Shown: positions 12,445 through 32,485 of the stretch, piece by piece
How positions within the stretch are numbered: the first letter of the stretch is position 1
Layout of the letters: each line of letters starts with the position of its first letter
Source of the DNA: an uncultured Gammaproteobacteria bacterium
GTDB lineage: Bacteria; Pseudomonadota; Gammaproteobacteria; Chromatiales; Chromatiaceae
DNA length: 64,000 bases
NCBI GenBank assembly: GCA_963790775.1
Contig: CAWBPR010000012.1
Location: 2,763-66,762, forward strand
Direction of reading: 5' to 3'
Notes under the pieces: model-generated
Databases searched by the model: none
Seen by the model: only the letters and a program-made list of their open reading frames with translations
Told to the model about the DNA's origin: nothing
Program-made: the position numbers and the translations under genes

Positions 12445-12481
12445 ATTTTCCCCCATCAATGTGATTGCACCGGGATAGTGC

Positions 12482-12497: not shown

Positions 12498-12524
12498 TTG
12501 CTGATGCACTTATTGTTCCTGAGC

Positions 12525-18318: not shown

Positions 18319-18504
18319 AAAATCAAGGGCATGACAGCCCATCGGCATGTCAACACACACTCCGCATGAATTGACTTCTTATTCCCGCTCCGTTTAATGT
18401 GCTGATAAAGATCCTGGTCCCATTTCGGTTAACTTTAATAACAAACCCCTGAAATCTAAAGGGGCATAGATAATCCTTCATTAATAATAACGAGGGCCAA
18501 AGCC

Positions 18505-20406
18505 GTGGTGGATTTAACGACTGCCGCAGACACTGTTCCGATGACGAAGACCATCCATGAGCATATTGTGGAGATCGTCAGCGACTCCGGTGAAGGTGCT
18601 CAGAAAGCGGGGCAGACCTTTGGTGCGGTATGCGCCAGAATGGGCAATGGCGTCTGGACCGTAGAGATCATCCCCGCGGAAATCCAGCCACCCGCCCGCT
18701 CTCCCGCAGGCGCCAGCGGTATCCGTATCCGTCTAGCCTCGCATAATGTCACCAACATGGGAGACGAGGCAGACATCGTGGTGGCCTTCAACGAACAGGT
18801 CCTTTACTCACGCATCGCCAACGGCGCCTACAGGAAAGGCACCCAGGTCCTGCTGGAAGATAAATGGCGCGATGATGCAGTCCCCGAGATCCGTGAGCAG
18901 TACCTCAAGGCAGTCACCGAATTCCGCAACAATGGACTGATCGTCCATGAGTTGCCCATTGAAAAGGCTTGCCTGGAGATCACGCCAAACCCACGCCGGG
19001 GCAAGAACATGTTCGTGCTGGGGATGTTGTGCCGCATCTATTCGCGGGATGTGGAGACGGCCAAGGGGGAAATCGCCACCACCTTCAGACGCAAGGGCGA
19101 CAAAGTCATCGGAATGAATCATCAGCTATTCGATGCAGGCTACCAGTTCGCCCGAGAGACCCTGGACCTGGATTACCAGATCCCGCCACAGCCTGCGCAG
19201 GAAAGGGAAGGCAAGCGCTTCATCGTGACTAACGGCAACACGGCGCTGGGCCTGGGGATTATGGCCTCAGGCATGGAACTGGTCGCCATGTACCCGATCA
19301 CCCCCGCCACATCGGCCTCTCACTACCTGGCCGACGTCTATCACGAGGTGGGTGGCTTCGTGCACCAGGCTGAGGACGAGATTGCCGCCGCCGGTTTTGC
19401 CATCGGAGCATCTTTCGCCGGCAAAACCGCCTGCACCATCACCTCGGGTCCCGGACTGGCGCTGAAGACCGAGATGCTGGCTCTGGCAGTGATGGCGGAA
19501 GTCCCCCTGGTGGTGTGTGTGGTGCAGCGGGGCGGGCCGTCCACCGGCCTGCCCACCAAGGTAGAGCAGGGAGATCTGCTGGCCTCACTCTTCGGTGAGC
19601 CGGGCGATGCCCCGAAAGTGGTGATTGCAGCGGCCACCATCGAGGAATGCCTGCATTTCGTGATCATGGCGCGGCGGCTCGCCGAGACCTTCCGCACGCC
19701 AGTGATACTGCTGACGGATGCCAATCTGGCCACCGGAGTGCAGCCCTACCCACGGCCGGAGCCAAGCCTGGACTGGCAGGCTCCACCCATCGACCAGTCG
19801 GTATGGGATGATTATATTCCGCCCTACAACTGGGACCCGGAGACCGGCCTGTCCCCACGCCCGATTCCCGGCATGCCCGGCGGACAGTACATCCTGACCG
19901 GCCTGGCCCATACCAACCAGAGCAAGGTAGCCTACGACTCTGACTCCAACCAGCACAGCGCCAACATGCGCAGCCGCAAGTTTGCCGCCCTGGGCAGCAC
20001 CCTGAAACCGCCTCCGCTGCATGGTGATGAAACCGGCGATCTGCTGGTTGTCGGCTGGGGTTCAACCCTGGGCGCCATCGAGGAAGCCGTGGATCGCGCC
20101 CGCGCCGGTGGTTACAAGGTCTCATCCCTGCACCTGCGTTTTCTCCTGCCCATGGAACCCGGCCTGAAAAAGATCTTTACGGGTTTTCGCAAAGTCATGA
20201 CGGTGGAGATCAATTACAGCGACGACCCGCACGCGCCCCTGATCACGCCAGAAAACCGCCGCTATTCCCAACTCGCCATGCTGCTCAGGGCACAGACGCT
20301 GATAGACATCGACTGCTGGTCCGTCGTCTACGGTCATCCCCTGCAACCAGGCATGATCCATGGCGTGCTTCTCAAACGGCTCGAAGCCATACAAGGAGAG
20401 GACTGA
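18505..20406 (+). CDS. korA: 2-oxoglutarate:ferredoxin oxidoreductase, alpha subunit (fused gamma+alpha type)
   Basis: 633 aa. The N-terminal gamma-like domain has IVSDSGEGAQKAG. The alpha domain has NGNTALGLG..MYPITPATS..EDEIAAAGFAIGASFAG..TSGPGLALK. The GTG at 18505 has GAGGG 8 nt upstream. An alternative ATG lies at 18541. Confidence 0.88.
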   Translation: MVDLTTAADTVPMTKTIHEHIVEIVSDSGEGAQKAGQTFGAVCARMGNGVWTVEIIPAEIQPPARSPAGASGIRIRLASHNVTNMGDEADIVVAFNEQVLYSRIANGAYRKGTQVLLEDKWRDDAVPEIREQYLKAVTEFRNNGLIVHELPIEKACLEITPNPRRGKNMFVLGMLCRIYSRDVETAKGEIATTFRRKGDKVIGMNHQLFDAGYQFARETLDLDYQIPPQPAQEREGKRFIVTNGNTALGLGIMASGMELVAMYPITPATSASHYLADVYHEVGGFVHQAEDEIAAAGFAIGASFAGKTACTITSGPGLALKTEMLALAVMAEVPLVVCVVQRGGPSTGLPTKVEQGDLLASLFGEPGDAPKVVIAAATIEECLHFVIMARRLAETFRTPVILLTDANLATGVQPYPRPEPSLDWQAPPIDQSVWDDYIPPYNWDPETGLSPRPIPGMPGGQYILTGLAHTNQSKVAYDSDSNQHSANMRSRKFAALGSTLKPPPLHGDETGDLLVVGWGSTLGAIEEAVDRARAGGYKVSSLHLRFLLPMEPGLKKIFTGFRKVMTVEINYSDDPHAPLITPENRRYSQLAMLLRAQTLIDIDCWSVVYGHPLQPGMIHGVLLKRLEAIQGED

Positions 20407-21359
20407 TGTTCGGATTAAAACCTGACTGGTCGCTGGAAGTCTTCGAGCGTTATTTCACCATGGGTGACTATGCGGGGGGCGAGGCCCGCTGGTGCCCCGG
20501 ATGCGGGGACCACGCGGTGCTGACTGCTGCGCAAAAGGTGTTGCGTGATGAACAGCAACGCCCGGAGATGTCCGTGTGCGTCTCCGGCATCGGTTGCTCC
20601 AGCCGCATGCCGCACTACATGGGCACGTTCGGCTTTCACGGCCTGCACGGGCGCGCCCTGCCCGTCGCCTGCGGCATCAAGTCCAGACGCCCGGAGTTGG
20701 ATGTGTGGGTAGCCAGCGGCGACGGCGACTGCTTCTCCATCGGCACCGCTCACTGGATTCACGCCCTGCGCTACAACATGGACATGACCCTGATGGTATT
20801 TGACAACTCGGTCTACGGATTGACCAAGGCCCAGACCTCCCCGACCAGCCCCCAGGGTTTCAAGACCAACACCCATCCATTTGGCGCCATTCTCGAGCCC
20901 CATAATCCGTTGACGGTGACTCTGGGAATCACCAACATCTCGTTCGTGGCCCAAGTGGTGGACTGGAACCCTCCGCTGCTCTACGAGACCCTCAAGGCCG
21001 CCTACCGACACAAGGGAACCGGGTTCGTGCGTATCATCCAGCGTTGCCCGGTTTATGCGGAACGGTTATCGAAGGAGTTGCAGGACAATCCGAGCCGCTT
21101 CGTGCTGCTGGAACATCCGCGGGGGATAGCGCTGGACAAGGGCGTGCGCCGCCAGTTTCCCAACCGGGTGGAGCACGATCCATCGGATCTCAACCGGGCC
21201 TTCCAACTCGCCGCCGATACAGCGTTGTTACCGGTGGGATTGCTCTATCACAACCCGCACGCTCCCTGCTACGAGGACCTGTCAAGCCAGGGTGTCGAGA
21301 TGACTCCTGAAGAGAGACTCGCCGGTTTTAATGCCGTGCTGGATCGCATCACTGTCTGA
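20406..21359 (+). CDS. korB: 2-oxoglutarate:ferredoxin oxidoreductase, beta (TPP-binding) subunit
   Basis: 317 aa with WCPGCGDH and an intact TPP motif (SGDGDCFSIG..VFDNSVYGLTKAQTSPT). The ATG shares 1 nt with the korA TGA. Confidence 0.9.
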   Translation: MFGLKPDWSLEVFERYFTMGDYAGGEARWCPGCGDHAVLTAAQKVLRDEQQRPEMSVCVSGIGCSSRMPHYMGTFGFHGLHGRALPVACGIKSRRPELDVWVASGDGDCFSIGTAHWIHALRYNMDMTLMVFDNSVYGLTKAQTSPTSPQGFKTNTHPFGAILEPHNPLTVTLGITNISFVAQVVDWNPPLLYETLKAAYRHKGTGFVRIIQRCPVYAERLSKELQDNPSRFVLLEHPRGIALDKGVRRQFPNRVEHDPSDLNRAFQLAADTALLPVGLLYHNPHAPCYEDLSSQGVEMTPEERLAGFNAVLDRITV

Positions 21360-21427
21360 TTCTGCGTGTTTGAGCATACGTCCCGAAACATTTAATGGAC
21401 TCCTAAAAAAACGAGAGTTTCACTGAA

Positions 21428-23944
21428 ATGACAACCACACACTCGGCCGGCAATGAACAGCAGACACAGTTGCCAGGCAGTGAACCCAAACAGCTGCCGT
21501 CCCTGCCGACAGCGGTGAAGGATGCCAGGGCTACCCGGGAACTGATGTTCGTGCTGCGTCATTTCCACCTCGGTGACCCCGCCGCCCGGGAGCAGCTGGA
21601 AGCGCTCGGCGATGACTATCTCCCGGCGCTGCTTGATCCATTCCGGGATAGTTCCAGGCTGCGTTACGACTACCCCCTGTTCCTTTTCCCCCCGCATACC
21701 GATGCCGGGTATCAGTCAGCCGATGAACTCGCCTGCCCCCTGGCGCAATGGTTCCAGCAGGCAGCGGCCAGCTTTACCCAGGGGGACGATAAGGCGCGCG
21801 TCCTCAAGGACCACTTCCCCTGGCTGGAACATCGTGTCCGCGAGTTGCTGCAGCAACGGGAAGGTCCGGTAGATGCCGGGGCGACCCTGGCGGAGTCCTG
21901 CCGCCTTTTACAGGCGCACCTGGCGCTGGCCGAACAGGATCGGAAGCGATTGAACAACGATATCGAGCAATTGCTGCAGGCTGTTCCGGAGGGGGCGCAG
22001 CTGCTGAGCTATGGCCGCTATCCCGCCCTGCACCTGCTGATCCATGCCGTCCGCAGTCAGATTTCACATCTCCAGACCCGCTTTCAGGAGCGGATCAATC
22101 AATCCATCCGCGGTCTCAAGGAACTGCTCGAAGTCGAGTGGTCGAAATCAGTCGAATCCATCGAGCCAAAACTGGCCCGAGATAGTATCGGTCTGGGTGG
22201 CGATCGCTTCGACCCCGCCATTCTGTCGGCGGTGATGGATCACTCCCGGGGCACCCAGAGAATGTCTCTGCAGCGGCGCGAGCGTATCGGACAAGCCCTG
22301 AAGATCATGGAGTCCTGGGCGCCGGATCCGGTGCTCGTCCATTTTCTGCACATGGGCACTCTGACCGATCCCTGGGTGCAAGATGTCGACTTCTGCCATG
22401 AGATAGCCGCTGGCGACCCCTGCGCCAAGGCGATGGAGGTTTTCGACCGCGAAGCGGAAAAGCTCACCGCAGTTTTCGGTGCGGTGCGCATCGCACAACT
22501 CGAGATCGAAGGTATTTACACGGCTGAGATCCACGATCCCTGGTTTGCGAATTTCACCTGGGAGGCCTTCTCTCAGGAAGAACTGAGACTGGTGCCATCG
22601 GTCATCGCATTGGGCTCGGCAGACCAGATGGCTGGAGAGGGCCTGCGTACTTTCTCCCGTCTGTTAAGCTCCGGGCGGCCGGTGCAGATCCTGATCCGGG
22701 TCCTGGCCCACGCCAACCCGGGCGCCGGACTCGACGAAGATGCGTTCCGGAATTTCCGCACCGAGCTGGGTTATCTGGGCATCAGCCATCGTCAGGCGGT
22801 TGTCGACCAATCGTCTGCCGCCCGCCATCAACATCTGTTGCAGTGCTATCTTTCGGCCCTGGATGCCACGCGCACCAGCCTGCATGTCATCAACACCGGT
22901 CTGCGTCCTCCCGGCAGGCTGCTCCCGCTCAATGCATGGCTGGTGGCCGGCGCCGCCATCGAAAGCCGCGCTCATCCGTTTTTCCGCATCAATCCGGAAG
23001 CGGGGGATTCCGCCGCCATGCGGATGGATTTCAGCGGCAACCCCCAGCAGGATAGAGACTGGCCCCTGCACCCGTTCCACTATCTGGACGACAACGGCAA
23101 CCCTGTCGACAGCGAACTGGCTTTCACCTTCGCCGACTATGCCCTGTTGATCGAACGACTGCGGGACCATTTCCGTCTGATTCCCGCGGGCTGCGACTCT
23201 GACGGACTAGTGTCGATACAGGATTATCTGGCGATGAACCCGGAGCAATCTTATCAGCGGGTGCCGTTCGTCTGGGCCATAGACGGCAATGCCATACTGC
23301 ACCGGCTGGTGATTTCCCGAGAACTCGCTCAGACCTGCCGTGACCGCCTCAATTACTGGCACACCCTGCAGGAAATGGCCGGCGTGCGAAACCGCTATGT
23401 CGAACTGGCGGTGGAAAAAACCCGGGCAGAGGAGCGCAAACTTGCCAGTGAGGAACGTGAGCGTCTGCGGGCGGAACATGCCGAGGCGCTGGAGCGCGTG
23501 CGGAACGAGGCTGCCGGTGAGGCCATGCAGCGCCTCACCGATGTCCTGTTGGGACTGGACTCCATAGGAATGCAGGGGGCGTACCTGCCGTCATCCGGTT
23601 CTTCCGCGGAACAGCCTGAAACCCCAGACGAGCAGGAGTCGGCACAACAGGCGATGCTTGGCACGCCGGACGAAGAGGATGAAGAACTGTCCTTTGACGA
23701 GCCCTGGATAGATACTCCGTTGTGCACCAGCTGTAATGACTGCCTGCCAATCAATCCACTGTTGTTCACCTATAACGAAGAAAAACAGGCGCTGCTCGGA
23801 GACCTGAGCAGCGCCACTTATGCCCAGCTGGTGCAGGCGGCCGAACTCTGTCCCGCCAGGTGCATCCATCCGGGCAAGCCACTTGATCCCGACGAGCCGG
23901 GCCTGGCCGAGTTGATCGATCGCGCCGCACCGTTCAACCAATGA
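21428..23944 (+). CDS. uncharacterised 838-aa protein: unknown N-domain + degenerate PFOR domain-VI-like core + coiled coil + C-terminal single-cluster ferredoxin domain
   Basis: The central region parallels the C-terminal third of the 1534-aa PFOR-like ORF and canonical PFOR: SVIALGSADQMAGEGLRTFSRLLSSGRPVQILI, ELGYLGISHRQAVV, SLHVINTG, RAHPFFRINPEAGD. The C-terminus has CTSCNDC..CPARC (CxxCxxC..CP). The stop overlaps the rnfB ATG (ATGA). Confidence 0.7.
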   Translation: MTTTHSAGNEQQTQLPGSEPKQLPSLPTAVKDARATRELMFVLRHFHLGDPAAREQLEALGDDYLPALLDPFRDSSRLRYDYPLFLFPPHTDAGYQSADELACPLAQWFQQAAASFTQGDDKARVLKDHFPWLEHRVRELLQQREGPVDAGATLAESCRLLQAHLALAEQDRKRLNNDIEQLLQAVPEGAQLLSYGRYPALHLLIHAVRSQISHLQTRFQERINQSIRGLKELLEVEWSKSVESIEPKLARDSIGLGGDRFDPAILSAVMDHSRGTQRMSLQRRERIGQALKIMESWAPDPVLVHFLHMGTLTDPWVQDVDFCHEIAAGDPCAKAMEVFDREAEKLTAVFGAVRIAQLEIEGIYTAEIHDPWFANFTWEAFSQEELRLVPSVIALGSADQMAGEGLRTFSRLLSSGRPVQILIRVLAHANPGAGLDEDAFRNFRTELGYLGISHRQAVVDQSSAARHQHLLQCYLSALDATRTSLHVINTGLRPPGRLLPLNAWLVAGAAIESRAHPFFRINPEAGDSAAMRMDFSGNPQQDRDWPLHPFHYLDDNGNPVDSELAFTFADYALLIERLRDHFRLIPAGCDSDGLVSIQDYLAMNPEQSYQRVPFVWAIDGNAILHRLVISRELAQTCRDRLNYWHTLQEMAGVRNRYVELAVEKTRAEERKLASEERERLRAEHAEALERVRNEAAGEAMQRLTDVLLGLDSIGMQGAYLPSSGSSAEQPETPDEQESAQQAMLGTPDEEDEELSFDEPWIDTPLCTSCNDCLPINPLLFTYNEEKQALLGDLSSATYAQLVQAAELCPARCIHPGKPLDPDEPGLAELIDRAAPFNQ

Positions 23945-24804
23945 GCAGCTATGTCATCGCACCAGCCATCATGACCGGGATCGGCCTGGTTTTTGCGGTT
24001 ATCCTGGCGGTGGCCTATCGGTTTCTGAAGGTGCAGGAAGATCCCCGGATCGAGGAAACCGAAGATCTGCTGCCAGGCTCCAATTGCGGCGCCTGCGGCC
24101 AACCCGGCTGTCACGCCTTCGCCGAACAGCTGGTGCAAGGGGCCGCTTCGCCCAGCAAGTGCACGGTCGCAAGCCAGGAAGTCATCGATTCGGTGGCGGA
24201 ACTGCTGGATGTCGATCCAGGTCAGCAGGAAAAACGCGTGGCCCGGCTGCATTGCGCCGGCGGCAAGGGCCAGGCTTACCAGATCGCCGAGTACCAGGGC
24301 TTCGACAGCTGTCTGGCTGCTGCCGTGGTATCCGGTGGCGGCAAGGGCTGCTCCTGGGGCTGCTTTGGTCTGGGCGACTGTCAGAAAGACTGCACTTTCC
24401 ACGCTATCACGATGAATTTCAATGGCCTGCCGGTGGTGGACGTGGACCGGTGCACCGCCTGCGGCGATTGCGTAGACACCTGCCCGAGGGACCTGTTCGA
24501 GCTGCTGCCCTTGAGTCAGCATTTATTCGTCCAGTGCAAGGCGCCGCTTGCCGGAGAGATGGCCGTCTCTCTCTGCATCACCGCATGCGATGCCTGTGAG
24601 CGCTGTGTGGCGGATGCGGCGCCGGGCCTTATCCGCATGCAGGACAATCTGCCGGTAGTGGATTATACAGGCGGTGGCCCGGCCCGGCCGGAGGCGACCT
24701 ATCGTTGCCCCACCGGCGCCATCCAGTGGCTGGAAGGCGCCCAGTTCGCAGACCAGCACACCACCAGAACCAAGAGTGAGACCCGCTATGCCCGGCTTCG
24801 CTAA
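23941..24804 (+). CDS. rnfB: Rnf complex subunit B (N-terminal TM anchor, CxxCGxxGC cluster domain, polyferredoxin)
   Basis: 287 aa. The TM helix is IAPAIMTGIGLVFAVILAVAY. Motifs present are NCGACGQPGC, CSWGCFGLGDCQKDC and CTACGDCVDTCP. Confidence 0.85.
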   Translation: MSSYVIAPAIMTGIGLVFAVILAVAYRFLKVQEDPRIEETEDLLPGSNCGACGQPGCHAFAEQLVQGAASPSKCTVASQEVIDSVAELLDVDPGQQEKRVARLHCAGGKGQAYQIAEYQGFDSCLAAAVVSGGGKGCSWGCFGLGDCQKDCTFHAITMNFNGLPVVDVDRCTACGDCVDTCPRDLFELLPLSQHLFVQCKAPLAGEMAVSLCITACDACERCVADAAPGLIRMQDNLPVVDYTGGGPARPEATYRCPTGAIQWLEGAQFADQHTTRTKSETRYARLR

Positions 24805-27800
24805 TACCGCCTTGCGGTTATTGAGACGCGTGCTCGGGACGACCTCCCGCACCACAGGTCCCTACGCCGGCAATCCGACCGTCCTCGACGGCAATACCGC
24901 GGTCGCAGTCACAGAAGCGGGGATCAGCGAAGCCGCGGGGTTGGGGGCCACCTTTCCTGCAGAGACCGCCGGACTGGCCTGGCGCAGCGAACAATGGCGC
25001 CACGGCAGCAACCTTGCGGGCAGCCCGCTCAGCACCCTGGCGGCGGAAGGACCCCGCGGCGCGCTGGCTGCCAGCATCGGCCTGGCGATGAGTGGCGTCA
25101 GGGCCACCAGCTTTCTGTCAGGCCCCGATCTGGTCCAGGCCATGGATCTATTGACACTCGCCGCCGGTCGCCGTCTGCCCCTGGTGATACACCTCAGCGA
25201 GCGCAGTCTTGCGGGCCATGCCCCTGCCCTGGGGAGCGGTCACCAGGCCCTGCACCTGAGCGCCGATGCAGGCTGTTTGCTGTTCACCGCAGCCAACGTG
25301 CAGGAGGCGGTGGATTTTTCCCTGATCGCCCGGCGCGTCGCAGAACAGGCCCTGATCCCAGCTCTGGTCGCCATGGATGCTGAGCAGACAGCCCTTGCCG
25401 TACAGGAGGTCCGGTTGCCCCCTGCAGAGCTGGTGGAAAGCTTCCTCGGGCGGCCCGGTGATCAGATACCGGCCCCGACGCCTGCGCAACAGTTGCTGTT
25501 GGGGGATGAGCGCAGGCGGACGCCCTGTTGGCACGACCCTGACCGCCCGGTGATGCTGAATGCTCTGCAAGCTCCGCAAGTTTGGGGGCTGGCCAGAGCT
25601 GCCGGGAAAGCCTGGTTCGACGACCATCTGGCGGCATGCCTCGAGGATGCCTTTGAACGTTTCGCCGCACAGACCGGGCGGCGGCATCGGCAGCTGTCAT
25701 CCTACCGCGTGGAAGATGCCAGACTGATCCTGGTGGCGCAGGGCGCGGCCGTCGAAACCCTGGAGGCGGTGGCAGATCATCTGCGCAGCAGGCACCGGCT
25801 GAAAACCGGCGTGCTGGGGGTCCGCTGTCTGCGTCCCTTTCCTGGAGCGGAGCTGGCGCGGCTCCTGGGCAAGCTGGGCAATGGCGCCAGAGTCTGCGTA
25901 CTGGAGCGCCTGGATACCCCCCTGGCCACGGATCCGCCCTTGTTGCGCGAGGTCCGCGCCACGCTTGACCACGCCTTGGAAAATGACCGCTTTGGGACGG
26001 ATACCCACCCTGACTATCCGGCGCTGAAAGAAAAACACCGGCCCAGGTTCCTGTCAGTCGTGTATGGCCTCGGTGGGTTTCCCCTGCGCGCTGCCGACCT
26101 GGCGGCCTTGTGCCGAAATCTGGCAACGATCCGCCGGCCCCAGGTCTATCTGGGGATTAATTTTTCACACACCTCCAGTGTCTATCCCAAACGACAGGTG
26201 TTGCTTGACCGCCTGCGCCGAAGCTATCCGGAGATCGTCGATCTGGGACTGACTGATGCCGCCGCTTCACCCGACCTGCGCCCGGCAGATGCCTTGACGC
26301 TGACCATACACCGGCTGTCCGGTGGCGCAGGCGAAGGGTTGTTGGCGGAAGCGGCAAGCTTCGCGCATCGGCTCCTGGGCGGCGGATTGCGCAGCAGACC
26401 GGCATTGTTCACCGAGCCTTGGGGCGGAGTCTGCCTTGACCGGCTTACCTTCGGCGCCGCAGACCTGCGGGACCCGGGAGACGAAACCCCCATCGATCTG
26501 GCGCTGATTACCACTGATTCCGACCTGCAGGAACTCTATCCTCAGCAGGGGCTCGATGCAGGATCCGCCCTGCTGGTGCAGAGCGCCCTTCCACATGAGG
26601 CGCTTTGGGCGCAACTGCCCGGCGCCGCTCGGGCTGTGCTGAAGGCGGCGGGCCGCCACCTGTACATCGTATCTCCCCTCGAAGGCCCCGCCTCCACCCG
26701 CAATGAATATCTGCTGGGCGCCTTGTTTGCGGTACTGCTGGACACCGGCCTGCTGAAGGTCACCCAGCGCCGCCTGCTCAGCGTCCGCGAGGAGATACTG
26801 CAGCAATCTGTAGTGGACGCCGGACAACAGCTGGCAGTTTTCGAAGCCGGCATGCAACAGGTCCAGCTGATCAACAGTGCACGTCTCCCCCTTGAGCCTG
26901 CGCAGGCGGCTATCGCTGCCGACGATGAGGCGCCTCCCCTGGTGCGCCGGCTGGGCAACATCGATAATGCCTACGACAGCCTCCCCCGCTTCTGGGACCA
27001 GGTCGGAGTGCTCTACAAACAAGGCAACACCAGTGAACTGGCGCCGGACCCCTATCTGGCGGTGGGGGCGGTGCCGCCCCTGTCGGCCAGTTTTCGCGAC
27101 CTAAGCCCGCTGCGGAGCGAGCTGCCCGTTTTTGAACCCGCGTTATGCACGGGGTGTGGCGCCTGCTGGAGCGCCTGCCCGGATTCGGCCATCCATACGC
27201 TGGCGATTTCACCTGCCCGTCTGATCGATGCGGGTATCCGCAGGACGGGTGCTGAGGCGCTGCGGCCGCTCGTCTCCAAGCTCGCGGCAGGCATCGCGGA
27301 GCAGTGCTCGCGCGAGGATTCCAGCGCTTCGACAGTGGCGCAGCTAGTGACTGGGGCCTACGACAGGCTGAAGGGGAAACTGCCCTTCCCGGAAGAACGC
27401 AAGGCAGCGATCAACGCAGGCCTGGATCAGTTGCTGACGGCATTCGGCTGTCTGCCCGTTGCAGTCACTGCCGCCCTGTTTTTCGAGTCCGAGAACCAGG
27501 CAAAGGGCAGCGGAGAGCTGCTGGCGCTGGCAGTGGACACAGGCGGTTGTAAGGGCTGCGGGATCTGCATCCAGGCCTGCGAGCCGGGGGCGCTGCAGCT
27601 TGCCCATCAAAGCGCTGATGTCCTGTCTCAGGCGCGGCGGATTCAGCAGGCCTGGCACGAGCTGCCCGACACTCAGCCGGCAACAATTCAACGCCTGGGA
27701 CAGCACCCCGGAGTCGGTGCAACGGCAGCGGCGCTGCTTGGACGCGGTGCGGGACTGGCCATCACCGGCGGCGACGGCGCGGAACCTGGATCCGGGGCCA

Positions 27801-29392
27801 AGCTGGCGCTACGCCTGGTGCTGGCGGTCGTGGAGGGTCAGCAAGCTCCGCGGTTTGAGGCTTTCCTGAAAGAGATCCATGCCACCCGTGGGAAAATAAC
27901 CGGATTGATCCGCGATATCCTGGCGGATGCCCTGCCCGCCGATGACCTGGATGCTCTGTCCCGTGGTCTGGATAACATCAATACCCGGCATGCCGATATG
28001 AGCACACTGCTAGGTGAAGCGGAACAGGCGATTGGCAGCGCGCTTGACGCCGCCAGGCTGCGCCGGCTGGTTGACTTGGCGCGGGCGCTGGGCGACCTCG
28101 CCTGGCGGGTGTCCAGCGGACGCCAGGGAATGGGGCGCGCCCGGGTGAGCCTGGTGCTCTCACCCGGCTCTATGGTGAGTTGGGCCAGCAGCTTCCCGCA
28201 CAACCCGTTTTCAGTTCCCGTCACCCTGGACCCCAGTGGTGACGGCGCTCAGCTTGCCGCCGGCTTGCTGGAAGGTCAACTGCGCCAGGCGACACAGGGT
28301 TTTGTACTGATGCGCAAGGCGCGCGTGGAGCTGCAGCGCCCGGCGGACGCGGCCCGCGCCTGGTCAGACCTCGAGGCTTTGTCCTGGCGTGACCTCGATG
28401 ATGCAGAGCGGGCCTTATGTCCCTCACTGCTTCTGGTAGGCGACAGCAGCCTGCTGAGCGGCGCTGGCCTGGGGCAGGTGAGCATTATTCTCGGTAATGA
28501 TTTGCCGGTTAAAATGCTGTTGCTCAGCGACCTGGACCTGGGGATCGACAAACCGGCAGGCCTGCAGGCTCCCCTGGCCGCAGTGGATGATGTCAGCGTA
28601 GATCTAGGCCTGTTGGCGATCGCCCGGCGCGGCGCCTGCATCGCCCAGACCGCGATCAGCGCCAGCGCGCATTTTGCCGCAAGCATTCACTCGGCCTTTA
28701 CCTTCCGGGGTCCGGCCCTGCTGCATGTGCATGCCCCAAGCCCGGCGCGCCATGGCTTCGCACCGGACCAGACCCTGCACCGGGCCCAGGCCGCAGTGGA
28801 CGCCAGGGTGTTTCCCCTGTTCCGTTATGATCCTGAGGCCGAAGGCGTGTTCGGCTCCCGCATCAGTCTGGATGGCAACCCGGCTCCTCTGGATACCTGG
28901 AACATGATTTCGGATGGGAGCGCCTGCACCCCTGCCCAATGGGCGTTGGGCGAGGAGCGCTTCTGCGATTGGTTCCTGCCGTTGCAGGAGGACGCTGCCG
29001 ATCCAACCCCAATAGCGGAATATCTAACCCTGCCCCGGCGGGAGCGAAGCAAACGGACGCCCTTTGTGGAACAAACAACCAGTGGCAGCGAGACCCAGCG
29101 CTTCTCGGTTGATCAGTGGCTGGTGCGCATCAGCGAGGAGCGGCAAGACTCCTGGCGCATGCTGCAGGAGCTGGCAGGGCTGGTGACTCCATTTACTGCG
29201 CGGGTAGAGCGAGCGGCGGAAGCACGTGTTGCTGCGGACCACAAGGCTGAGCTGAGCGCACAGGCAGAAGTCTACGAACAGCGTCTTCGGGATCTGCGCA
29301 ACGCGCTTCAGCAAGAAAACCGCCAGCAGATGCGTGAACGCCTGATGCAGCTTGCCGGCTACCGCGACGCTGCCGTACGCAAATCGGGTTAG
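24788..29392 (+). CDS. PFOR (pyruvate:ferredoxin oxidoreductase)-like protein, 1534 aa, catalytic motifs apparently degenerate
   Basis: The start is trimmed to the first ATG after the rnfB overlap (MPGFANTALRL). Collinear with PFOR domains I-VI: DGNTAVAVTEAG.., LSGPDLVQAMDLL.., VRCLRPFPG..VLERLD, and a 2x[4Fe-4S] domain (CTGCGACWSACP at 27146, CKGCGICIQACEP at 27548). The TPP region reads GDSS..LLLSDLDLG and the FPLFRYDPEAEG box is present. Confidence 0.8.
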   Translation: MPGFANTALRLLRRVLGTTSRTTGPYAGNPTVLDGNTAVAVTEAGISEAAGLGATFPAETAGLAWRSEQWRHGSNLAGSPLSTLAAEGPRGALAASIGLAMSGVRATSFLSGPDLVQAMDLLTLAAGRRLPLVIHLSERSLAGHAPALGSGHQALHLSADAGCLLFTAANVQEAVDFSLIARRVAEQALIPALVAMDAEQTALAVQEVRLPPAELVESFLGRPGDQIPAPTPAQQLLLGDERRRTPCWHDPDRPVMLNALQAPQVWGLARAAGKAWFDDHLAACLEDAFERFAAQTGRRHRQLSSYRVEDARLILVAQGAAVETLEAVADHLRSRHRLKTGVLGVRCLRPFPGAELARLLGKLGNGARVCVLERLDTPLATDPPLLREVRATLDHALENDRFGTDTHPDYPALKEKHRPRFLSVVYGLGGFPLRAADLAALCRNLATIRRPQVYLGINFSHTSSVYPKRQVLLDRLRRSYPEIVDLGLTDAAASPDLRPADALTLTIHRLSGGAGEGLLAEAASFAHRLLGGGLRSRPALFTEPWGGVCLDRLTFGAADLRDPGDETPIDLALITTDSDLQELYPQQGLDAGSALLVQSALPHEALWAQLPGAARAVLKAAGRHLYIVSPLEGPASTRNEYLLGALFAVLLDTGLLKVTQRRLLSVREEILQQSVVDAGQQLAVFEAGMQQVQLINSARLPLEPAQAAIAADDEAPPLVRRLGNIDNAYDSLPRFWDQVGVLYKQGNTSELAPDPYLAVGAVPPLSASFRDLSPLRSELPVFEPALCTGCGACWSACPDSAIHTLAISPARLIDAGIRRTGAEALRPLVSKLAAGIAEQCSREDSSASTVAQLVTGAYDRLKGKLPFPEERKAAINAGLDQLLTAFGCLPVAVTAALFFESENQAKGSGELLALAVDTGGCKGCGICIQACEPGALQLAHQSADVLSQARRIQQAWHELPDTQPATIQRLGQHPGVGATAAALLGRGAGLAITGGDGAEPGSGAKLALRLVLAVVEGQQAPRFEAFLKEIHATRGKITGLIRDILADALPADDLDALSRGLDNINTRHADMSTLLGEAEQAIGSALDAARLRRLVDLARALGDLAWRVSSGRQGMGRARVSLVLSPGSMVSWASSFPHNPFSVPVTLDPSGDGAQLAAGLLEGQLRQATQGFVLMRKARVELQRPADAARAWSDLEALSWRDLDDAERALCPSLLLVGDSSLLSGAGLGQVSIILGNDLPVKMLLLSDLDLGIDKPAGLQAPLAAVDDVSVDLGLLAIARRGACIAQTAISASAHFAASIHSAFTFRGPALLHVHAPSPARHGFAPDQTLHRAQAAVDARVFPLFRYDPEAEGVFGSRISLDGNPAPLDTWNMISDGSACTPAQWALGEERFCDWFLPLQEDAADPTPIAEYLTLPRRERSKRTPFVEQTTSGSETQRFSVDQWLVRISEERQDSWRMLQELAGLVTPFTARVERAAEARVAADHKAELSAQAEVYEQRLRDLRNALQQENRQQMRERLMQLAGYRDAAVRKSG

Positions 29393-29423
29393 CAATGGAT
29401 AATCCACACAGACCGGGAACCCT

Positions 29424-30764
29424 ATGCTAGCCCTGTCCAGACTGTTCAAGCGCGGCTTCTCCCACGGTATTCATCCACATGCATACAAGGAGCAGACTGC
29501 CGGACTGCACACCCAGCGCATGCCCTTCGTCGAGCGCTATATACTTCCCGTTCACCAGCACCTGGGAGCCCCTTCCAAGCCTGTGGTGGAAGTGGGGCAG
29601 CGGGTGGGACGCGGGACATTGATCGCCGAACCGGGGGCCTTCGTCTCCACCAGTCTGCACAGCCCGGTTACCGGCTGGGTCCGGGCCATCGGCCGACGGC
29701 GCTTTCCCGGCGGCCGCTATGCACAGGCCATCGAGATCGAGGCGGACCCCTATGCCACCCAACGGCTGGATGTCGAGCGCCCTCCCGATTGGCGCGGCCT
29801 GTCGCTGGAGGATTTCGTTTCCGTGATGCAGCTGACGGGTATCGTCGGCCTGGGCGGGGCCTCGCTTCCCGCCCACGTCAAATACTCCCTGCGCGAGGGG
29901 GTGAAGATCAAATACCTGATCGCCAACGGCGCTGAGTGCGAGCCCTATCTGACCAACGACCACCGGGTGATGGTGGAGCGGCCTGACGCCCTGCTGCGCG
30001 GTATGGAAATTCTGCAAACTCTGCTCGGCGCCGAGGAATCCATCATCGGCATCGAACTCAACAAGCCCGATGCCATCGAGGCGCTGCGTGCGCGCATCCC
30101 TTCCGACCGGCCCTGCCGGGTGGCGCCCCTGCGGGTCAAGTATCCCCAGGGTGATTCGAAAATGCTCATCAAATCCCTGTTGAACATAGAGGTTCCCACG
30201 GGTCTGCACGCGGCGGACCTGGGGATCATTATGAATAATGTAAGCACCATTGCCGCGATCGCGGACTACTTCGACACCGGCCTGCCCTATATCGACCGCA
30301 TGGTCACGGTGTCTGGTCCCGGTATCGAATACCCCGCCAATCTGATCGTGCCATTGGGTACGCCGGTGCGAGAGGTGTTGCGTTTCTGTGGCGGCCTTAA
30401 ACGCGACACCAAGGAGGTCATCATGGGCGGCCCCATGATGGGCACCCCGATCGCCAGCCTGGACGCTCCGATCATCAAATCAAGCTCCGGGGTGCTGGCC
30501 TTTACGGCCGAGCAGACGGCCCGCCCCAAAGAGTATCCCTGCATCCGTTGCGGCCGTTGCGTGGAGGCCTGCCCCTATTTTCTCAATCCGTCCAAACTGG
30601 CCCGTCTGGCCAAGGCGCGCCTGTTCGAAAAGATCAAGCAGGCCAACGTGATGGAGTGTGTGGAGTGCGGTTCCTGCACCTACTCCTGTCCCTCGGGTAT
30701 CCCGATCGTGCAGCTGATCCGAAGCGCGAAAAGCGACATCCGCAGTAAGAAGGGGGCGAGATGA
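29424..30764 (+). CDS. rnfC: Rnf complex subunit C
   Basis: 446 aa. Motifs present are FSHGIHP, HLGAPSKPVVEVGQRV, GLGGASLPAHVK, ANGAECEPYLTNDHR, KYPQGDSKML, and two 4Fe-4S motifs (CIRCGRCVEACP, CVECGSCTYSCP). Confidence 0.88.
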   Translation: MLALSRLFKRGFSHGIHPHAYKEQTAGLHTQRMPFVERYILPVHQHLGAPSKPVVEVGQRVGRGTLIAEPGAFVSTSLHSPVTGWVRAIGRRRFPGGRYAQAIEIEADPYATQRLDVERPPDWRGLSLEDFVSVMQLTGIVGLGGASLPAHVKYSLREGVKIKYLIANGAECEPYLTNDHRVMVERPDALLRGMEILQTLLGAEESIIGIELNKPDAIEALRARIPSDRPCRVAPLRVKYPQGDSKMLIKSLLNIEVPTGLHAADLGIIMNNVSTIAAIADYFDTGLPYIDRMVTVSGPGIEYPANLIVPLGTPVREVLRFCGGLKRDTKEVIMGGPMMGTPIASLDAPIIKSSSGVLAFTAEQTARPKEYPCIRCGRCVEACPYFLNPSKLARLAKARLFEKIKQANVMECVECGSCTYSCPSGIPIVQLIRSAKSDIRSKKGAR

Positions 30765-31768
30765 TGCACAAAGACCCCAAGCTGCTGGTGCAGCCAGCCC
30801 CCTTATTGAAGCAGAACATGAGCACGGTGCAGAGCATGCGCGATGTGCTCTACGCCCTGCTGCCGGCAACCCTGGCGGCAATCTGGCTGTTCGGCCTGGG
30901 GGCGCTGCTGGTGCTGCTGGCGTGCATTCTGGGGGCAGTATTCACCGAGTGGATCTTCTCGCCTGCGGAACAGCGCTCGGTGCGGCTGCTGGATACCAGC
31001 GGGGTGCTGACCGGTTTGCTGCTGGGGCTCTCCCTGCCCCCCGCGCTGCCGCTGTGGATGGCCTTCCTGGGCGGGGTTGTTTCCATTGGCCTGGGTAAAC
31101 TGATCTGGGGCGGGTTGGGGCAAAACCTGTTCAATCCGGCCCTGGTTGGCCGGGCTTTTCTGCTTGCAACTTTCCCCAATGCCATGACCACCTGGAGCTC
31201 CCAGCTGAGCGGGGAAGGCTTTTTCCAATGGCACCCTTCCAATCTTGCCCTGCCTTTCATGCAGCCCGAATATGACATGCTCTCTGCGGCCACGCCCCTG
31301 GGACTGATGAAATTCGAACAGCAGCCCACTGCGCTGCTGGACTTGATGCTGGGCAATACCGCCGGCTGCCTGGGAGAGACCAGCGGTCTGCTGTTGCTGG
31401 CGGGCGGGGTGTTCCTGCTGCTGAGGCGGGATATTGACTGGCGCATCCCGACGGGTATTTTGCTCTCCGTGGCAGTGCTCTCCGTTGTCTTGTATGCCCT
31501 CGACGCCGCCCGCTTTCCGGACCCTCTGTTCGCCGTGTTCTCCGGCGGGTTGTTGCTGGGCGCCTTCTACATGGCCACCGACCCGGTCACCTCACCGCTG
31601 ACCCCGCGCGGCGCCTGGATCTTTGCGCTTGGCGTTGGCCTGCTGGTGGTGGTCATCCGACTCTTCGGCGGCTTTCCAGAAGGAGTGATGTACGCGATTC
31701 TACTGATGAATGCGGCCACCCCGCTGATCGACCGTTTTATCCAGCCCCGGCTGTTCGGCAAGGTGTGA
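30761..31768 (+). CDS. rnfD: Rnf complex subunit D (polytopic membrane, FMN site)
   Basis: 335 aa and multi-TM, with NqrB/RnfD-type motifs (LFNPALVGRAFL, SAATPLG, YMATDPVTSP). The ATG overlaps the rnfC stop. Confidence 0.88.
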   Translation: MMHKDPKLLVQPAPLLKQNMSTVQSMRDVLYALLPATLAAIWLFGLGALLVLLACILGAVFTEWIFSPAEQRSVRLLDTSGVLTGLLLGLSLPPALPLWMAFLGGVVSIGLGKLIWGGLGQNLFNPALVGRAFLLATFPNAMTTWSSQLSGEGFFQWHPSNLALPFMQPEYDMLSAATPLGLMKFEQQPTALLDLMLGNTAGCLGETSGLLLLAGGVFLLLRRDIDWRIPTGILLSVAVLSVVLYALDAARFPDPLFAVFSGGLLLGAFYMATDPVTSPLTPRGAWIFALGVGLLVVVIRLFGGFPEGVMYAILLMNAATPLIDRFIQPRLFGKV

Positions 31769-31775
31769 AGATCAG

Positions 31776-32432
31776 ATGAAGAACCGGACTCAGCCCCCCA
31801 TCAAGAACGTTGAACCCGGCTCCAGCCGGCTGGTGGCCACCCTTGGCTTCGCCGGCCTGCTGTCGGGCCTGATCATCGTGTCGGTGTACGAGGCCACGCT
31901 GCCGACTATCTCCGCCTACAAGGCCAAGGTGCTGCAGGAAGCGGTGTTCAGGGTGCTTCCGGGCACTACTCGCCTGCAGCAACTGGCTTACCGCGAGGAC
32001 AGGCTGACTGCGGTGGAGAAGTTAGAGAAGGACGAGGAGTCCATCTTCGGCGGCTATGACACGCAGGGGAATCTTGTGGGCTATGCCATCCCCGGCTCAG
32101 GCCCCGGCTTCCAGGACATCATCCGGCTGCTGTACGGCTACCTGCCGGAACAACGCAAGGTGGTCGGCATGGAGATCCTGGAAAGCCGTGAAACCCCGGG
32201 GCTCGGGGATAAGATCTACAAAGACGCCGGGTTCGTGGCTAATTTCGATGATTTGTCTATCGAGCCGGAACTGGTGGTGGTGAAGAAGGGCAACAAGGCC
32301 GCTGCGAACGAGATAGACGCCATCACCGGAGCGACTATTTCCTCCAAGGCAGTGGCGCGCATCATCAATCAAGCGAACCAGCAATGGTCTGCGCGCCTGG
32401 AGGCTCCGGATGAAAACAAAGCTGTCGACTAG
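31776..32432 (+). CDS. rnfG: Rnf complex subunit G (FMN-binding)
   Basis: 218 aa with an N-terminal TM anchor. Motifs present are ETPGLGDKI and the flavinylation motif DAITGATISSKAV. Confidence 0.88.
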   Translation: MKNRTQPPIKNVEPGSSRLVATLGFAGLLSGLIIVSVYEATLPTISAYKAKVLQEAVFRVLPGTTRLQQLAYREDRLTAVEKLEKDEESIFGGYDTQGNLVGYAIPGSGPGFQDIIRLLYGYLPEQRKVVGMEILESRETPGLGDKIYKDAGFVANFDDLSIEPELVVVKKGNKAAANEIDAITGATISSKAVARIINQANQQWSARLEAPDENKAVD

Positions 32433-32485
32433 GCAGGGTGTATCAGGCACCTGCGAATCACAGGTTTTAAACTAGGTTAAAAACC

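What the first reader, a model, noticed from the sequence alone, without database searches (positions are those of the whole stretch)
21428..23944. 838-aa protein upstream of rnfB is a second, independently degenerate PFOR domain-VI paralogue fused to a ferredoxin domain
Within-window comparison shows the same ordered blocks in the 838-aa ORF and in the C-terminal third of the 1534-aa ORF. (1) SVIALGSADQMAGEGLRTFSRLLSSGRPVQILIRVL matches SLLLVGDSSLLSGAGLGQVSIILGNDLPVKMLLLSDL. (2) ELGYLGISHRQAVVDQSSAARHQHLLQCYLSALDATRTSLHVINTG matches DLGLLAIARRGACIAQTAISASAHFAASIHSAFTFRGPALLHVHAP. (3) RAHPFFRINPEAGDSAAMRMDFSGNP matches DARVFPLFRYDPEAEGVFGSRISLDGNP. (4) Both then have a charged coiled-coil segment (EKTRAEERKLASEERERLRAEHAEALERVRNEA). 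After that, the 838-aa ORF has an acidic linker (PETPDEQESAQQAMLGTPDEEDEELSFDE) and a CTSCNDC..CPARC single-cluster ferredoxin module. The first approximately 330 aa match nothing I recognise. Two PFOR-derived, TPP-motif-less proteins flanking rnfB argues for selection rather than accidental decay.
Basis: partly seen in the sequence, partly recalled or inferred. Interest (0 to 1): 0.75.

Follow-up and report, generated by a model that had tools for sequence, protein, structure and literature searches.

The report
Cofactor-less PFOR relic carrying tethered ferredoxin
The 838-aa gene between korB and rnfB encodes a conserved, enzymatically dead descendant of pyruvate:ferredoxin oxidoreductase with a small iron-sulfur ferredoxin on a flexible tether, which most likely passes electrons between the 2-oxoglutarate enzyme KorAB and the membrane Rnf complex.

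Summary
The 838-aa ORF (T838) and the neighbouring 1534-aa ORF (bigPFOR) are paralogues: BLASTP E 2e-21 and profile-profile E 1e-44, covering T838 residues 42-714.

A high-confidence AlphaFold model (pLDDT 89) matches only 2-oxoacid:ferredoxin oxidoreductases in the PDB (M. thermoacetica PFOR, E 2.5e-7). Its C-terminus matches D. africanus ferredoxin I (TM 0.83).

Across 97 diverse homologues, the TPP/Mg motif and all four proximal-cluster cysteines are absent. Only the four ferredoxin cysteines are invariant. The big paralogue is also a pseudo-PFOR and keeps only its two-cluster ferredoxin domain. The two proteins share derived features, so the decay probably predates their duplication and was not independent.

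The family is large (about 900 clusters at E<1e-30). The order korA-korB-T838-rnfB-bigPFOR-rnfCDG(EA) recurs in Gammaproteobacteria, Myxococcota and Bacteroidota. In Betaproteobacteria an NfnAB-like pair replaces Rnf. KorAB is the most constant neighbour.

Best reading: a non-catalytic scaffold whose tethered [4Fe-4S] ferredoxin links KorAB to a pyridine-nucleotide-linked ferredoxin oxidoreductase. Earlier papers labelled these genes "por-like" and "PFOR" without examining the cofactor sites.

The parts
18505..20406 (+). korA: 2-oxoacid:ferredoxin oxidoreductase alpha subunit (domains III-I-II)
   Evidence: Pfam POR, POR_N and PFOR_II. NCBIfam TIGR03710 scores 493 bits, above its cut-off.
20406..21359 (+). 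korB: canonical TPP- and [4Fe-4S]-binding beta subunit
   Evidence: Pfam TPP_enzyme_C at E 1.5e-24. GDG, N134 and Cys30/33/64/214 are invariant in the alignment A3.
21428..23944 (+). T838, the finding: a pseudo-OFOR scaffold fused to a ferredoxin. The whole ORF, including the stop codon.
21551..21997 (+). T838 aa 42-190: helical N-terminal region. It is homologous to the stretch of the big ORF that holds domain V, but both Cys motifs are deleted.
   Evidence: hhalign of A2 against A4. An independent weak BLAST HSP pairs T838 65-85 with big ORF 800-820. pLDDT is 87-98.
21998..23062 (+). T838 aa 191-545: degenerate domain VI (TPP PP-binding fold) with no GDG/N motif and no cluster cysteines
   Evidence: Foldseek hits to PFOR and OFOR beta subunits. 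Residue census of 97 sequences. Alignment chain T838 to big ORF to MtPFOR/KorB.
23063..23392 (+). T838 aa 546-655: beta-rich C-terminal subdomain ending in the invariant WxxLQEMAG motif (W644, Q648, G652), which is shared with the big ORF
   Evidence: AF2 secondary structure. Invariant columns. The same motif occurs in 9 big-ORF homologues.
23393..23551 (+).
   Evidence: AF2 helix 656-708 with pLDDT about 89-97. It aligns with the C-terminal helix of the big ORF.
23552..23698 (+). T838 aa 709-757: acidic, disordered tether
   Evidence: pLDDT <50 at 710-755. Composition is visible.
23699..23941 (+). T838 aa 758-838: single-[4Fe-4S] ferredoxin domain with ligands C766, C769, C772 and C808
   Evidence: Pfam Fer4_13. 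PDB 1dax. Foldseek 1fxr TM 0.83. The four Cys are present in 97 of 97 sequences.
23941..24804 (+). rnfB. Its ATG overlaps the T838 stop codon (ATGA), which suggests translational coupling.
   Evidence: Pfam FeS plus Fer4. NCBIfam RnfB models. Sequence shown.
24788..29392 (+). bigPFOR (1534 aa): a pseudo-PFOR paralogue. It has domains I, II, V (two intact CxxCxxCxxxC motifs) and a degenerate VI.
   Evidence: MtPFOR E 5e-46; domain VI stretch i-E 8e-8. Motif census.
29424..33711 (+). rnfC, rnfD, rnfG, rnfE and rnfA
   Evidence: Pfam RnfC_N/Complex1_51K, NQR2_RnfD_RnfE, FMN_bind, and Rnf-Nqr twice.

Best explanation
T838 is a non-catalytic descendant of a full-length pyruvate:ferredoxin oxidoreductase.

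What the protein keeps and has lost:
- It keeps the fold of domain VI (the TPP diphosphate-binding, beta-subunit-like domain).
- It has lost the TPP/Mg motif, the proximal [4Fe-4S] ligands, the di-cluster domain V and, in this lineage, domains I-III.
- It carries a single-[4Fe-4S] ferredoxin of the D. africanus Fd I type, which is a classical OFOR redox partner. The ferredoxin sits on a roughly 50-residue acidic disordered tether, beyond a long helix.

Proposed mechanism (inferred):
[quoted passage not shown] KorAB has only one cluster and no ferredoxin domain of its own.
- The ferredoxin swings between KorAB and a pyridine-nucleotide-linked ferredoxin oxidoreductase.
- In this genome that partner is the Rnf complex. 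It is probably reached through RnfB and the two clusters of the paralogous pseudo-PFOR encoded between rnfB and rnfC, with which T838 may pair.
- The module thereby couples 2-oxoglutarate <-> succinyl-CoA + CO2 to NADH and the ion gradient. The direction depends on physiology.

Shown: homology, fold, loss of the cofactor motifs, conservation of the ferredoxin ligands, and synteny.
Inferred: physical docking, electron path and direction.
For: Paralogy and PFOR descent:
- BLASTP E 2e-21 and hhalign E 1e-44.
- The big-ORF profile against MtPFOR gives E 5e-46, with the domain VI stretch at i-E 8e-8. OOR beta gives 5.5e-11.
- The AF2 model has pLDDT 89.1 and pTM 0.80. Its top 24 Foldseek hits are all OFORs.
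- Long homologues carry POR_N and PFOR_II at the N-terminus.

Loss of catalysis:
- There is no conserved Cys, GDG or Asn at the OFOR cofactor positions in 97 sequences. The only conserved Cys are the ferredoxin ligands.
- The same holds for 9 big-ORF homologues, which keep both di-cluster motifs.

Ferredoxin and tether.

Selection: 346 close homologues at 57-100% identity. There are 2013 representative clusters, 908 of them at E<1e-30.

Synteny:
- korA-korB-T838-rnfB-bigPFOR-rnfC-D-G occurs in Ca. Thiodiazotropha and Chromatiaceae, Polyangiaceae and unclassified lineages, and partly in Haliscomenobacter.
- korAB-T838 without rnf occurs in a spirochaete and in two Beggiatoaceae.
- nfnA-like, nfnB-like, korA, korB, T838-like occurs in 4 beta/gammaproteobacterial loci. 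Both Nfn-type models score above NCBIfam cut-offs.
- The T838 stop codon overlaps the rnfB start.

Expression (by gene position and label only; these are not sequence-verified as orthologues):
- In Endoriftia, the gene after korB(3), labelled 'PFOR-like ferredoxin', is down-regulated together with korA(3) and korB(3) under sulfide limitation (PMC11636981, Suppl. Table 5).
- The 'por-like' gene is expressed in the Escarpia symbiont (PMC6315080 supplement).
Against: - There is no direct evidence of any protein-protein contact. No multimer model could be run.
- Seven loci of giant sulfur bacteria and their relatives have the gene next to neither kor nor rnf.
- About 9 of the 150 best family representatives lack the ferredoxin domain entirely. 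The scaffold must therefore have a role that does not depend on the tethered cluster.
- The core contains many invariant polar residues (E385, R455, Q461, R514, N538, D570). These could equally mark a ligand site rather than an interface.
- Sequence profiles of T838 alone do not detect PFOR or KorB.
- The first, shallow-alignment model gave no significant fold match, so the fold assignment depends on one AF2 model.
Confidence: 0.5

Rival explanations
1. T838 is primarily an accessory or input subunit of this Rnf variant. Together with the big pseudo-PFOR it would extend the RnfB ferredoxin-side wire. Its linkage to korAB would then be only operon-level co-regulation.
For: There is an ATGA overlap with rnfB. 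rnfB follows T838 directly in about 15 loci across three phyla, and the paralogue is inserted between rnfB and rnfC. Rnf-linked forms have about 40 more residues between the WxxLQE motif and the ferredoxin than Nfn-linked forms (median 122 against 80). This fits a helix that pairs with the big paralogue.
Against: A large subfamily in Betaproteobacteria and Lysobacter, and a spirochaete homologue, sit after korAB with no rnf nearby. Across phyla, korAB is the more constant neighbour.
Confidence: 0.17
2. T838 is a regulator, protector or assembly factor of KorAB. Examples would be a redox- or O2-sensing brake that uses its cluster, or a shield for the oxygen-labile KorAB cluster analogous to PFOR domain VII. 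It would not be a through-conduit for electrons.
For: Ferredoxin-less family members exist. Hemerythrin and rubrerythrin genes lie directly upstream of korA in four loci. The hosts live at oxic-sulfidic interfaces (background knowledge).
Against: The four ferredoxin ligands are invariant in 97 of 97 diverse members, and 137 of 150 representatives keep CxxCxxC. The consistent third partner is always a ferredoxin:NAD(P)H oxidoreductase, either Rnf or Nfn-like. That is what an electron carrier would need.
Confidence: 0.15
3. The remodelled domain-VI pocket binds a different ligand, and T838 has a new catalytic or substrate-binding function.
For: Many invariant charged or polar residues lie in the core (E385, R455, Q461, E512, R514, N538, D570). 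The whole length is strongly conserved.
Against: The gammaproteobacterial form has no partner PYR domain (domain I). There is no cofactor motif of any recognised kind. Pfam and NCBIfam give no hits outside the ferredoxin domain.
Confidence: 0.1
4. T838 is a working TPP-dependent OFOR beta-type subunit, that is, a real pyruvate or 2-oxoacid oxidoreductase component.
For: It has the fold of domain VI. Earlier papers labelled it 'por-like' or 'PFOR-like'.
Against: The GDG and Asn positions and all four proximal-cluster Cys positions are unconserved or absent in 97 sequences. Comparison with a true KorB profile is not significant (E 0.36). No TPP_enzyme_C hit is found.
Confidence: 0.03

Closest known systems
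Pyruvate:ferredoxin oxidoreductase domain VI and the OFOR beta subunits (M. thermoacetica PFOR 6cin/6ciq, M. acetivorans PorB 9bt4_C, OOR beta 5exd, OGOR beta 6n2n_B)
   Same: The fold is the same (Foldseek E 2.5e-7 to 1.5e-3; TM normalised to the beta subunits 0.38-0.46). The motifs that remain are colinear, for example (W/H)P(L/F)F(R)(Y/I)(D/N)P and the helix after the former CxxC.
   Different: There is no TPP/Mg motif and no proximal [4Fe-4S] ligands. The gammaproteobacterial form has no domain I partner. T838 adds a beta-rich subdomain, a long helix, an acidic tether and a C-terminal ferredoxin.
The 1534-aa 'PFOR' encoded between rnfB and rnfC (window 24788-29392). It was noted as PFOR in the Solemya velum symbiont (PMC4287430) and as 'por' in the Escarpia symbiont (PMC6315080).
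   Same: It is a paralogue (E 1e-44). It shows the same loss of the TPP motif and of the proximal-cluster cysteines, the same WxxLQE(L/M)AG motif and a matching C-terminal helix.
   Different: The big ORF keeps domains I and II and both [4Fe-4S] motifs of domain V, and it has no C-terminal ferredoxin. T838 has lost domain V and gained the tethered single-cluster ferredoxin.
Single-cluster ferredoxins of the Fer4_13 type (D. africanus ferredoxin I 1fxr/1dax, P. furiosus Fd 2z8q)
   Same: The ligand pattern is CxxCxxC...C(P). Pfam scores above its cut-off, and the structural match is TM 0.83 with rmsd 1.2 A. Ferredoxins of this type are natural OFOR partners (background knowledge).
   Different: Here the ferredoxin is not free. 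It is tethered to a roughly 700-residue pseudo-enzyme.
KorAB systems with a dedicated adjacent redox partner, for example the three-subunit 2-oxoglutarate:NADP+ oxidoreductase KorABC of Azoarcus evansii (Ebenau-Jehle et al. 2003; recalled from memory and not checked here)
   Same: A two-subunit KorAB is encoded next to the protein that carries its electrons to or from pyridine nucleotides. A KorC-like gene followed by korA'B' lies beside the T838-type cluster in L029 and L031.
   Different: In the T838 systems the carrier is a pseudo-OFOR-ferredoxin fusion. The NAD(P)H-linked enzyme is a separate Rnf or NfnAB-like complex.

Membership tests
2-oxoacid:ferredoxin oxidoreductase superfamily (homology) | Domain VI / beta-subunit fold (thiamine-diphosphate PP-binding fold), colinear with PFOR | tested here: met
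   Foldseek with the pLDDT-89 model returns 24 hits at E<=1e-3, all of them OFORs. The best is 6ciq_B at 2.5e-7. Transitive sequence link: hhalign to the big ORF at E 1e-44, and the big-ORF profile to MtPFOR domain VI at i-E 8e-8. The direct profile search of T838 against the PDB and KorB is not significant.
2-oxoacid:ferredoxin oxidoreductase (functional enzyme) | TPP diphosphate/Mg2+ motif GDG-X(24-28)-N/T in domain VI | tested here: not met
   At the equivalent columns (T838 395-399 and 424-431), no residue is conserved as Asp, Gly or Asn across 97 sequences. The motif is present and invariant in the adjacent KorB.
2-oxoacid:ferredoxin oxidoreductase (functional enzyme) | Four Cys ligands of the proximal [4Fe-4S] cluster in domain VI | tested here: not met
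   There is no Cys-rich column in the core apart from C332 (59 of 97) and C637 (74 of 97), and neither lies at a ligand position. The mapping of the first three ligands rests partly on my recollection of the PFOR sequence.
2-oxoacid:ferredoxin oxidoreductase (functional enzyme) | Domain I (PYR domain with the catalytic Glu) paired with domain VI | tested here: not met
   T838 has no POR_N. Long homologues have a weak POR_N plus PFOR_II. In the paralogous big ORF, the Glu position is not conserved among 9 homologues.
Fer4_13 single-cluster ferredoxin (PF13370) | Pfam gathering score and the CxxCxxC...C ligand set | tested here: met
   The score is 31.0 bits against a cut-off of 24.5. C766, C769, C772 and C808 are present in 97 of 97 sequences. 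1fxr gives TM 0.83.
Fer4_13 single-cluster ferredoxin (PF13370) | Actually binds a [4Fe-4S] (or [3Fe-4S]) cluster | not testable with these tools
   This needs EPR or UV-vis on the recombinant domain.
Rnf complex subunit | Stoichiometric component of the purified RnfABCDGE complex | not testable with these tools
   Only gene adjacency and the ATGA overlap with rnfB are available. T838 is not homologous to any canonical Rnf subunit.

The most novel reading that the evidence does not exclude
KorAB, T838, the big pseudo-PFOR and Rnf assemble into one membrane-bound supercomplex. In it, two dead PFOR copies, perhaps heterodimerised through their shared C-terminal helices, form a protein-held electron wire. 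The ion-motive Rnf would then drive 2-oxoglutarate synthesis (or 2-oxoglutarate oxidation would drive ion pumping) with no freely diffusing ferredoxin. In Betaproteobacteria the same adaptor would plug KorAB into an NfnAB-type enzyme instead. Under this reading, the 'PFOR' counted in several published reconstructions of symbiont carbon metabolism is not a pyruvate synthase.
Probability: 0.25. Interest if true: 0.8.

Novelty: new variant of a known kind. Interest (0 to 1): 0.6.

Why it matters
1. The family is large. There are about 2000 representative clusters, found in Gamma- and Betaproteobacteria, Myxococcota, Bacteroidota and Spirochaetota. Databases call it only 'ferredoxin', and no family model covers its roughly 700-residue core.

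2. T838 and its big paralogue have been read as PFOR or 'por-like' enzymes in reconstructions of chemosynthetic symbionts (Solemya, Escarpia and Riftia symbionts). If both are cofactor-less, those genomes have one pyruvate synthase fewer than assumed. The rnfB-'PFOR'-rnfC arrangement would then not mean that pyruvate feeds Rnf.

3. The conserved triad is KorAB, this adaptor, and a ferredoxin:NAD(P)H oxidoreductase (Rnf or Nfn-like). It gives a concrete, testable route by which microaerobic autotrophs could supply low-potential electrons to, or remove them from, the reversible 2-oxoglutarate step.

4. It is a clear case of a large redox enzyme recycled as a pseudo-enzyme scaffold.

Tried and rejected
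- Direct sequence evidence for PFOR homology of T838. phmmer and a 34-sequence profile against the PDB found only ferredoxin I. hhalign of the 97-sequence profile against a KorB profile was not significant (E 0.36). Pfam and NCBIfam found nothing outside the ferredoxin domain.
- First AF2 model from a shallow alignment (34 sequences, all >=57% identical). pLDDT was 68.7 and Foldseek gave no hit at E<=1e-3. I replaced it with a 97-sequence alignment.
- The idea that the big ORF might still bind TPP, because the window copy has GDS...D. I rejected it. The D, G and N/D positions and the domain-I Glu vary among 9 homologues, and all four proximal Cys are missing.
- The 858-aa ORF upstream of the homologue in L010 and L012 as a possible hidden paralogue. 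It shows no similarity and has no Pfam hit.
- Neighbours of the homologue in Beggiatoaceae-type loci. They are unrelated genes (RsfS, NMN-adenylyltransferase-like, LRR, MORN, peptidases).
- Promoter and terminator scans inside the operon found no more sites than in shuffled sequence.
- Identifying the source genome by exact-protein look-up: not on record. Cluster-member look-up gave no useful accessions.
- A regex test for a helix motif specific to Rnf-linked forms was mis-specified and is not used. Only the distance statistic is cited.
- Literature searches for an Rnf-OFOR supercomplex or for a description of this family found only gene labels in supplementary tables.
Full report
**What is there.**
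The + strand of the window carries a tight ten-gene row with the following ORFs:

| Gene | Coordinates |
|---|---|
| korA | 18505-20406 |
| korB | 20406-21359 |
| 838-aa ORF (T838) | 21428-23944 |
| rnfB | 23941-24804 |
| PFOR-like ORF, 1534 aa from ATG 24788 | 24788-29392 |
| rnfC | 29424-30764 |
| rnfD | 30761-31768 |
| rnfG | 31776-32432 |
| rnfE | 32486-33136 |
| rnfA | 33133-33711 |

The T838 stop codon overlaps the rnfB start as ATGA. Outside its last 80 residues, T838 matches no Pfam or NCBIfam model. Those residues are a Fer4_13 single-cluster ferredoxin scoring above the gathering cut-off.

**Checking the observation.**
All the quoted peptides are present.
- BLASTP between the two ORFs gives E 2e-21, with 26% identity over T838 181-658.
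- With family profiles (97 diverse T838 homologues against 6 big-ORF homologues), hhalign gives probability 100% and E 1e-44 over T838 42-714 against big ORF 730-1519.

The paralogy is therefore real and covers nearly the whole protein up to the tether, not only residues 330-650. In that alignment, the two CxxCxxCxxxC motifs of the big ORF (787-797 and 921-931) fall into gaps of T838. T838 therefore corresponds to 'domain V without its clusters, plus domain VI, plus the C-terminal extension' of the big ORF.

**Is it PFOR domain VI?**
Sequence methods alone do not connect T838 to canonical enzymes:
- phmmer and a profile search of the PDB find only D. africanus ferredoxin I.
- hhalign against the neighbouring true KorB family is not significant (E 0.36).

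The link is indirect but solid. The big-ORF profile hits M. thermoacetica PFOR at E 5e-46, including a colinear domain VI stretch (1212-1346 against 963-1106, i-E 8e-8). It also hits the OOR and PFOR beta subunits at 5.5e-11 and 1.3e-8.

Structure prediction settles the question. A first model from a shallow alignment was poor (pLDDT 68.7) and gave no significant fold match. A model from the 97-sequence alignment reached pLDDT 89.1 and pTM 0.80. Its 24 Foldseek hits at E<=1e-3 are all 2-oxoacid:ferredoxin oxidoreductases:

| Target | E-value | Note |
|---|---|---|
| MtPFOR | 2.5e-7 | about 430 aligned columns |
| PorB 9bt4_C | 1.4e-6 | TM 0.46 |
| OOR beta | not listed here | TM 0.45 |
| DaPFOR | 1.8e-4 | |
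| OGOR beta (just outside the 1e-3 threshold) | 1.5e-3 | |

The C-terminal domain superposes on ferredoxin I (1fxr) with TM 0.83 and rmsd 1.2 A.

**Cofactor sites.**
I made a residue census of the 97-sequence alignment.
- The columns equivalent to GDG, to the Mg-binding Asn/Thr and to the cluster cysteines hold no conserved Asp, Asn or Cys.
- The only conserved cysteines are C766, C769, C772 and C808 (97 of 97 sequences) and C812 (86 of 97).

The adjacent KorB has all canonical features invariant. T838 is therefore a pseudo-enzyme that can hold one cluster, in its ferredoxin domain.

The big ORF is degenerate in the same way. Among nine homologues, including Myxococcota, the domain-I Glu, the GDG and the Asn positions vary. 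The former CxxC is GG(D/G)GxEPGSG, and the last ligand is Ser in an invariant HAPSP. Both domain V cluster motifs are fully conserved. A marginal hhalign match to KorB (E 3.4e-3) gives the same residue mapping.

**Independent decay?**
Probably not.
- The two families lack the same features.
- They share derived ones: WxxLQE(L/M)AG, an invariant Glu before the first beta-strand of the former TPP motif, a beta-rich C-terminal subdomain and a long terminal helix.
- They are vastly closer to each other than either is to a working beta subunit.

T838-type proteins of 1.2-1.4 kaa exist with POR_N and PFOR_II at the N-terminus, and they are colinear with the big ORF in both regions. The simplest history has three steps:
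1. A full-length PFOR lost catalysis.
2. It duplicated.
3. One copy lost domain V, gained a C-terminal ferredoxin and, in Gammaproteobacteria, lost domains I-III.

**Distribution and context.**
The family is large.
- There are 346 close homologues at 57-100% identity in Ca. Thiodiazotropha, Sedimenticolaceae and Chromatiaceae. All are named 'ferredoxin'.
- An exhaustive HMMER search finds 2013 50%-identity clusters, 908 of them at E<1e-30.

I examined 31 related loci.
- **Full gene order.** korA-korB-T838-rnfB-bigPFOR-rnfC-D-G is identical in Ca. Thiodiazotropha and Chromatiaceae. It is also identical for the long forms in Polyangiaceae and three unclassified lineages, where hemerythrin lies upstream.
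- **Partial order with rnfB.** Achromatium and Haliscomenobacter show T838-rnfB-bigPFOR(-rnfCDG).
- **korAB without rnf.** A spirochaete and two Beggiatoaceae have korAB-T838 with no rnf.
- **Nfn-like in place of Rnf.** Four loci of a roughly 735-aa subfamily from Betaproteobacteria and Lysobacter (1069 hits) read nfnA/sudB-like, nfnB/sudA-like, korA, korB, T838-like. Both Nfn-type proteins score above NCBIfam cut-offs.
- **No conserved neighbours.** Seven loci from giant sulfur bacteria and relatives have unrelated genes on both sides.

KorAB is thus the constant partner. The variable third element is always a ferredoxin:NAD(P)H oxidoreductase.

**Mechanism proposed.**
Three facts lead to the proposal. 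KorAB-type OGORs lack the ferredoxin domain. The T838 ferredoxin is of the type that serves OFORs. It sits on a roughly 50-residue disordered acidic tether beyond a 53-residue helix.

I therefore propose that the pseudo-OFOR body docks the protein to KorAB and, here, to the big paralogue and RnfB. The tethered cluster would then shuttle electrons between KorAB and Rnf. Rnf-linked forms have about 40 more residues between WxxLQE and the ferredoxin than Nfn-linked forms (median 122 against 80). This fits a helix that pairs with the matching helix of the big ORF, but it is only a correlation.

The direction cannot be decided here. It could be 2-oxoglutarate synthesis driven by NADH and the ion gradient, or oxidation feeding Rnf.

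Two things count against a pure shuttle role. About 9 of the 150 best representatives lack the ferredoxin and end in an acidic helical tail. The core also holds many invariant polar residues.

**Prior knowledge.**
The genes have been seen before, but they were not analysed.
- Dmytrenko et al. 2014 noted 'PFOR between rnfB2 and rnfC2' in the Solemya velum symbiont. They inferred that pyruvate donates electrons to Rnf (PMC4287430).
- Rubin-Blum et al. 2019 list 'korA korB por-like rnfB por' in an rTCA cluster of the Escarpia symbiont and treat 'por' as a true PFOR (PMC6315080).
- Mitchell et al. 2024 list a 'PFOR-like ferredoxin' directly after korB(3) in Endoriftia. It is down-regulated with korAB(3) under sulfide limitation, with logFC -1.91, -2.62 and -2.57 (PMC11636981).

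I could not verify these orthologies by sequence. They rest on gene order and labels. No paper found here examines the cofactor motifs, the pseudo-enzyme status, the cross-phylum synteny or the Nfn-linked variant.

**Verdict.**
- It needs three corrections. The decay was shared rather than independent. The N-terminal third is also PFOR-derived. The primary partner is KorAB, with Rnf as one of two alternative partners.
- This is a new variant of a known kind, with moderate to high interest.

Noticed in passing
window 24788-29392: The 1534-aa 'PFOR' between rnfB and rnfC is itself a pseudo-PFOR. Among 9 homologues across phyla, the domain-I Glu, the GDG/N motif and all four proximal-cluster Cys are lost or unconserved. 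Both di-cluster ferredoxin motifs are invariant. Published reconstructions count it as a pyruvate synthase.
   Followed up: yes
window 18000-32000: The kor-rnf cluster is markedly more GC-rich (0.59-0.66) than both flanks (0.47-0.56). The same gene order occurs in high-GC Myxococcota. This suggests the whole module may have been acquired horizontally.
   Followed up: partly
L026 3454-11280; L029 2544-10217; L030 119-7845; L031 2633-10220: In Betaproteobacteria, Burkholderiales and Lysobacter, a roughly 735-aa subfamily of the same protein follows nfnA/sudB-like, nfnB/sudA-like, korA and korB, with no rnf. In L029 and L031, a second set (a 615-aa flavoprotein-ferredoxin fusion followed by korA' and korB') lies just downstream.
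   Followed up: partly
P0204, P0214, P0215, P0218, P0226, P0237, P0240, P0258, P0265 (family representatives): These full-length family members lack the C-terminal ferredoxin. They end instead in a conserved-looking acidic helical tail (…VDxVAAxLLE…). Their genomic context could not be looked up.
   Followed up: no
L022 3726-4801; L024 4235-4705; L027 4798-5905; L028 5496-5924: A hemerythrin gene, and in two loci also a rubrerythrin gene, lies directly upstream of korA in the long-form clusters. This hints at oxygen sensing or protection tied to the module. No equivalent is seen upstream of korA in the window, where a PRPP-synthetase-like gene sits at 17371-18318.
   Followed up: no
L020 12788-14938: In the spirochaete locus, a methylmalonyl-CoA mutase gene lies 0.7 kb downstream of korAB-T838-like. 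This fits a succinyl-CoA-centred role for the module in that organism.
   Followed up: no
window 10045-12669 (-), 13600-16257 (-), 35594-38530 (+): There is an 874-aa multihaem cytochrome with an MtrC/MtrF-like domain, a hybrid histidine kinase with two receiver domains and an Hpt domain, and a SNF2-family helicase next to a low-GC stretch (0.465 at 34-36 kb).
   Followed up: no
L006 10001-12516 and 13363-17956: In one MAG, both the T838 homologue and the big-ORF homologue are split by frameshifts. These are probably assembly errors rather than pseudogenes, because the sequences are otherwise 76-84% identical to the window.
   Followed up: no
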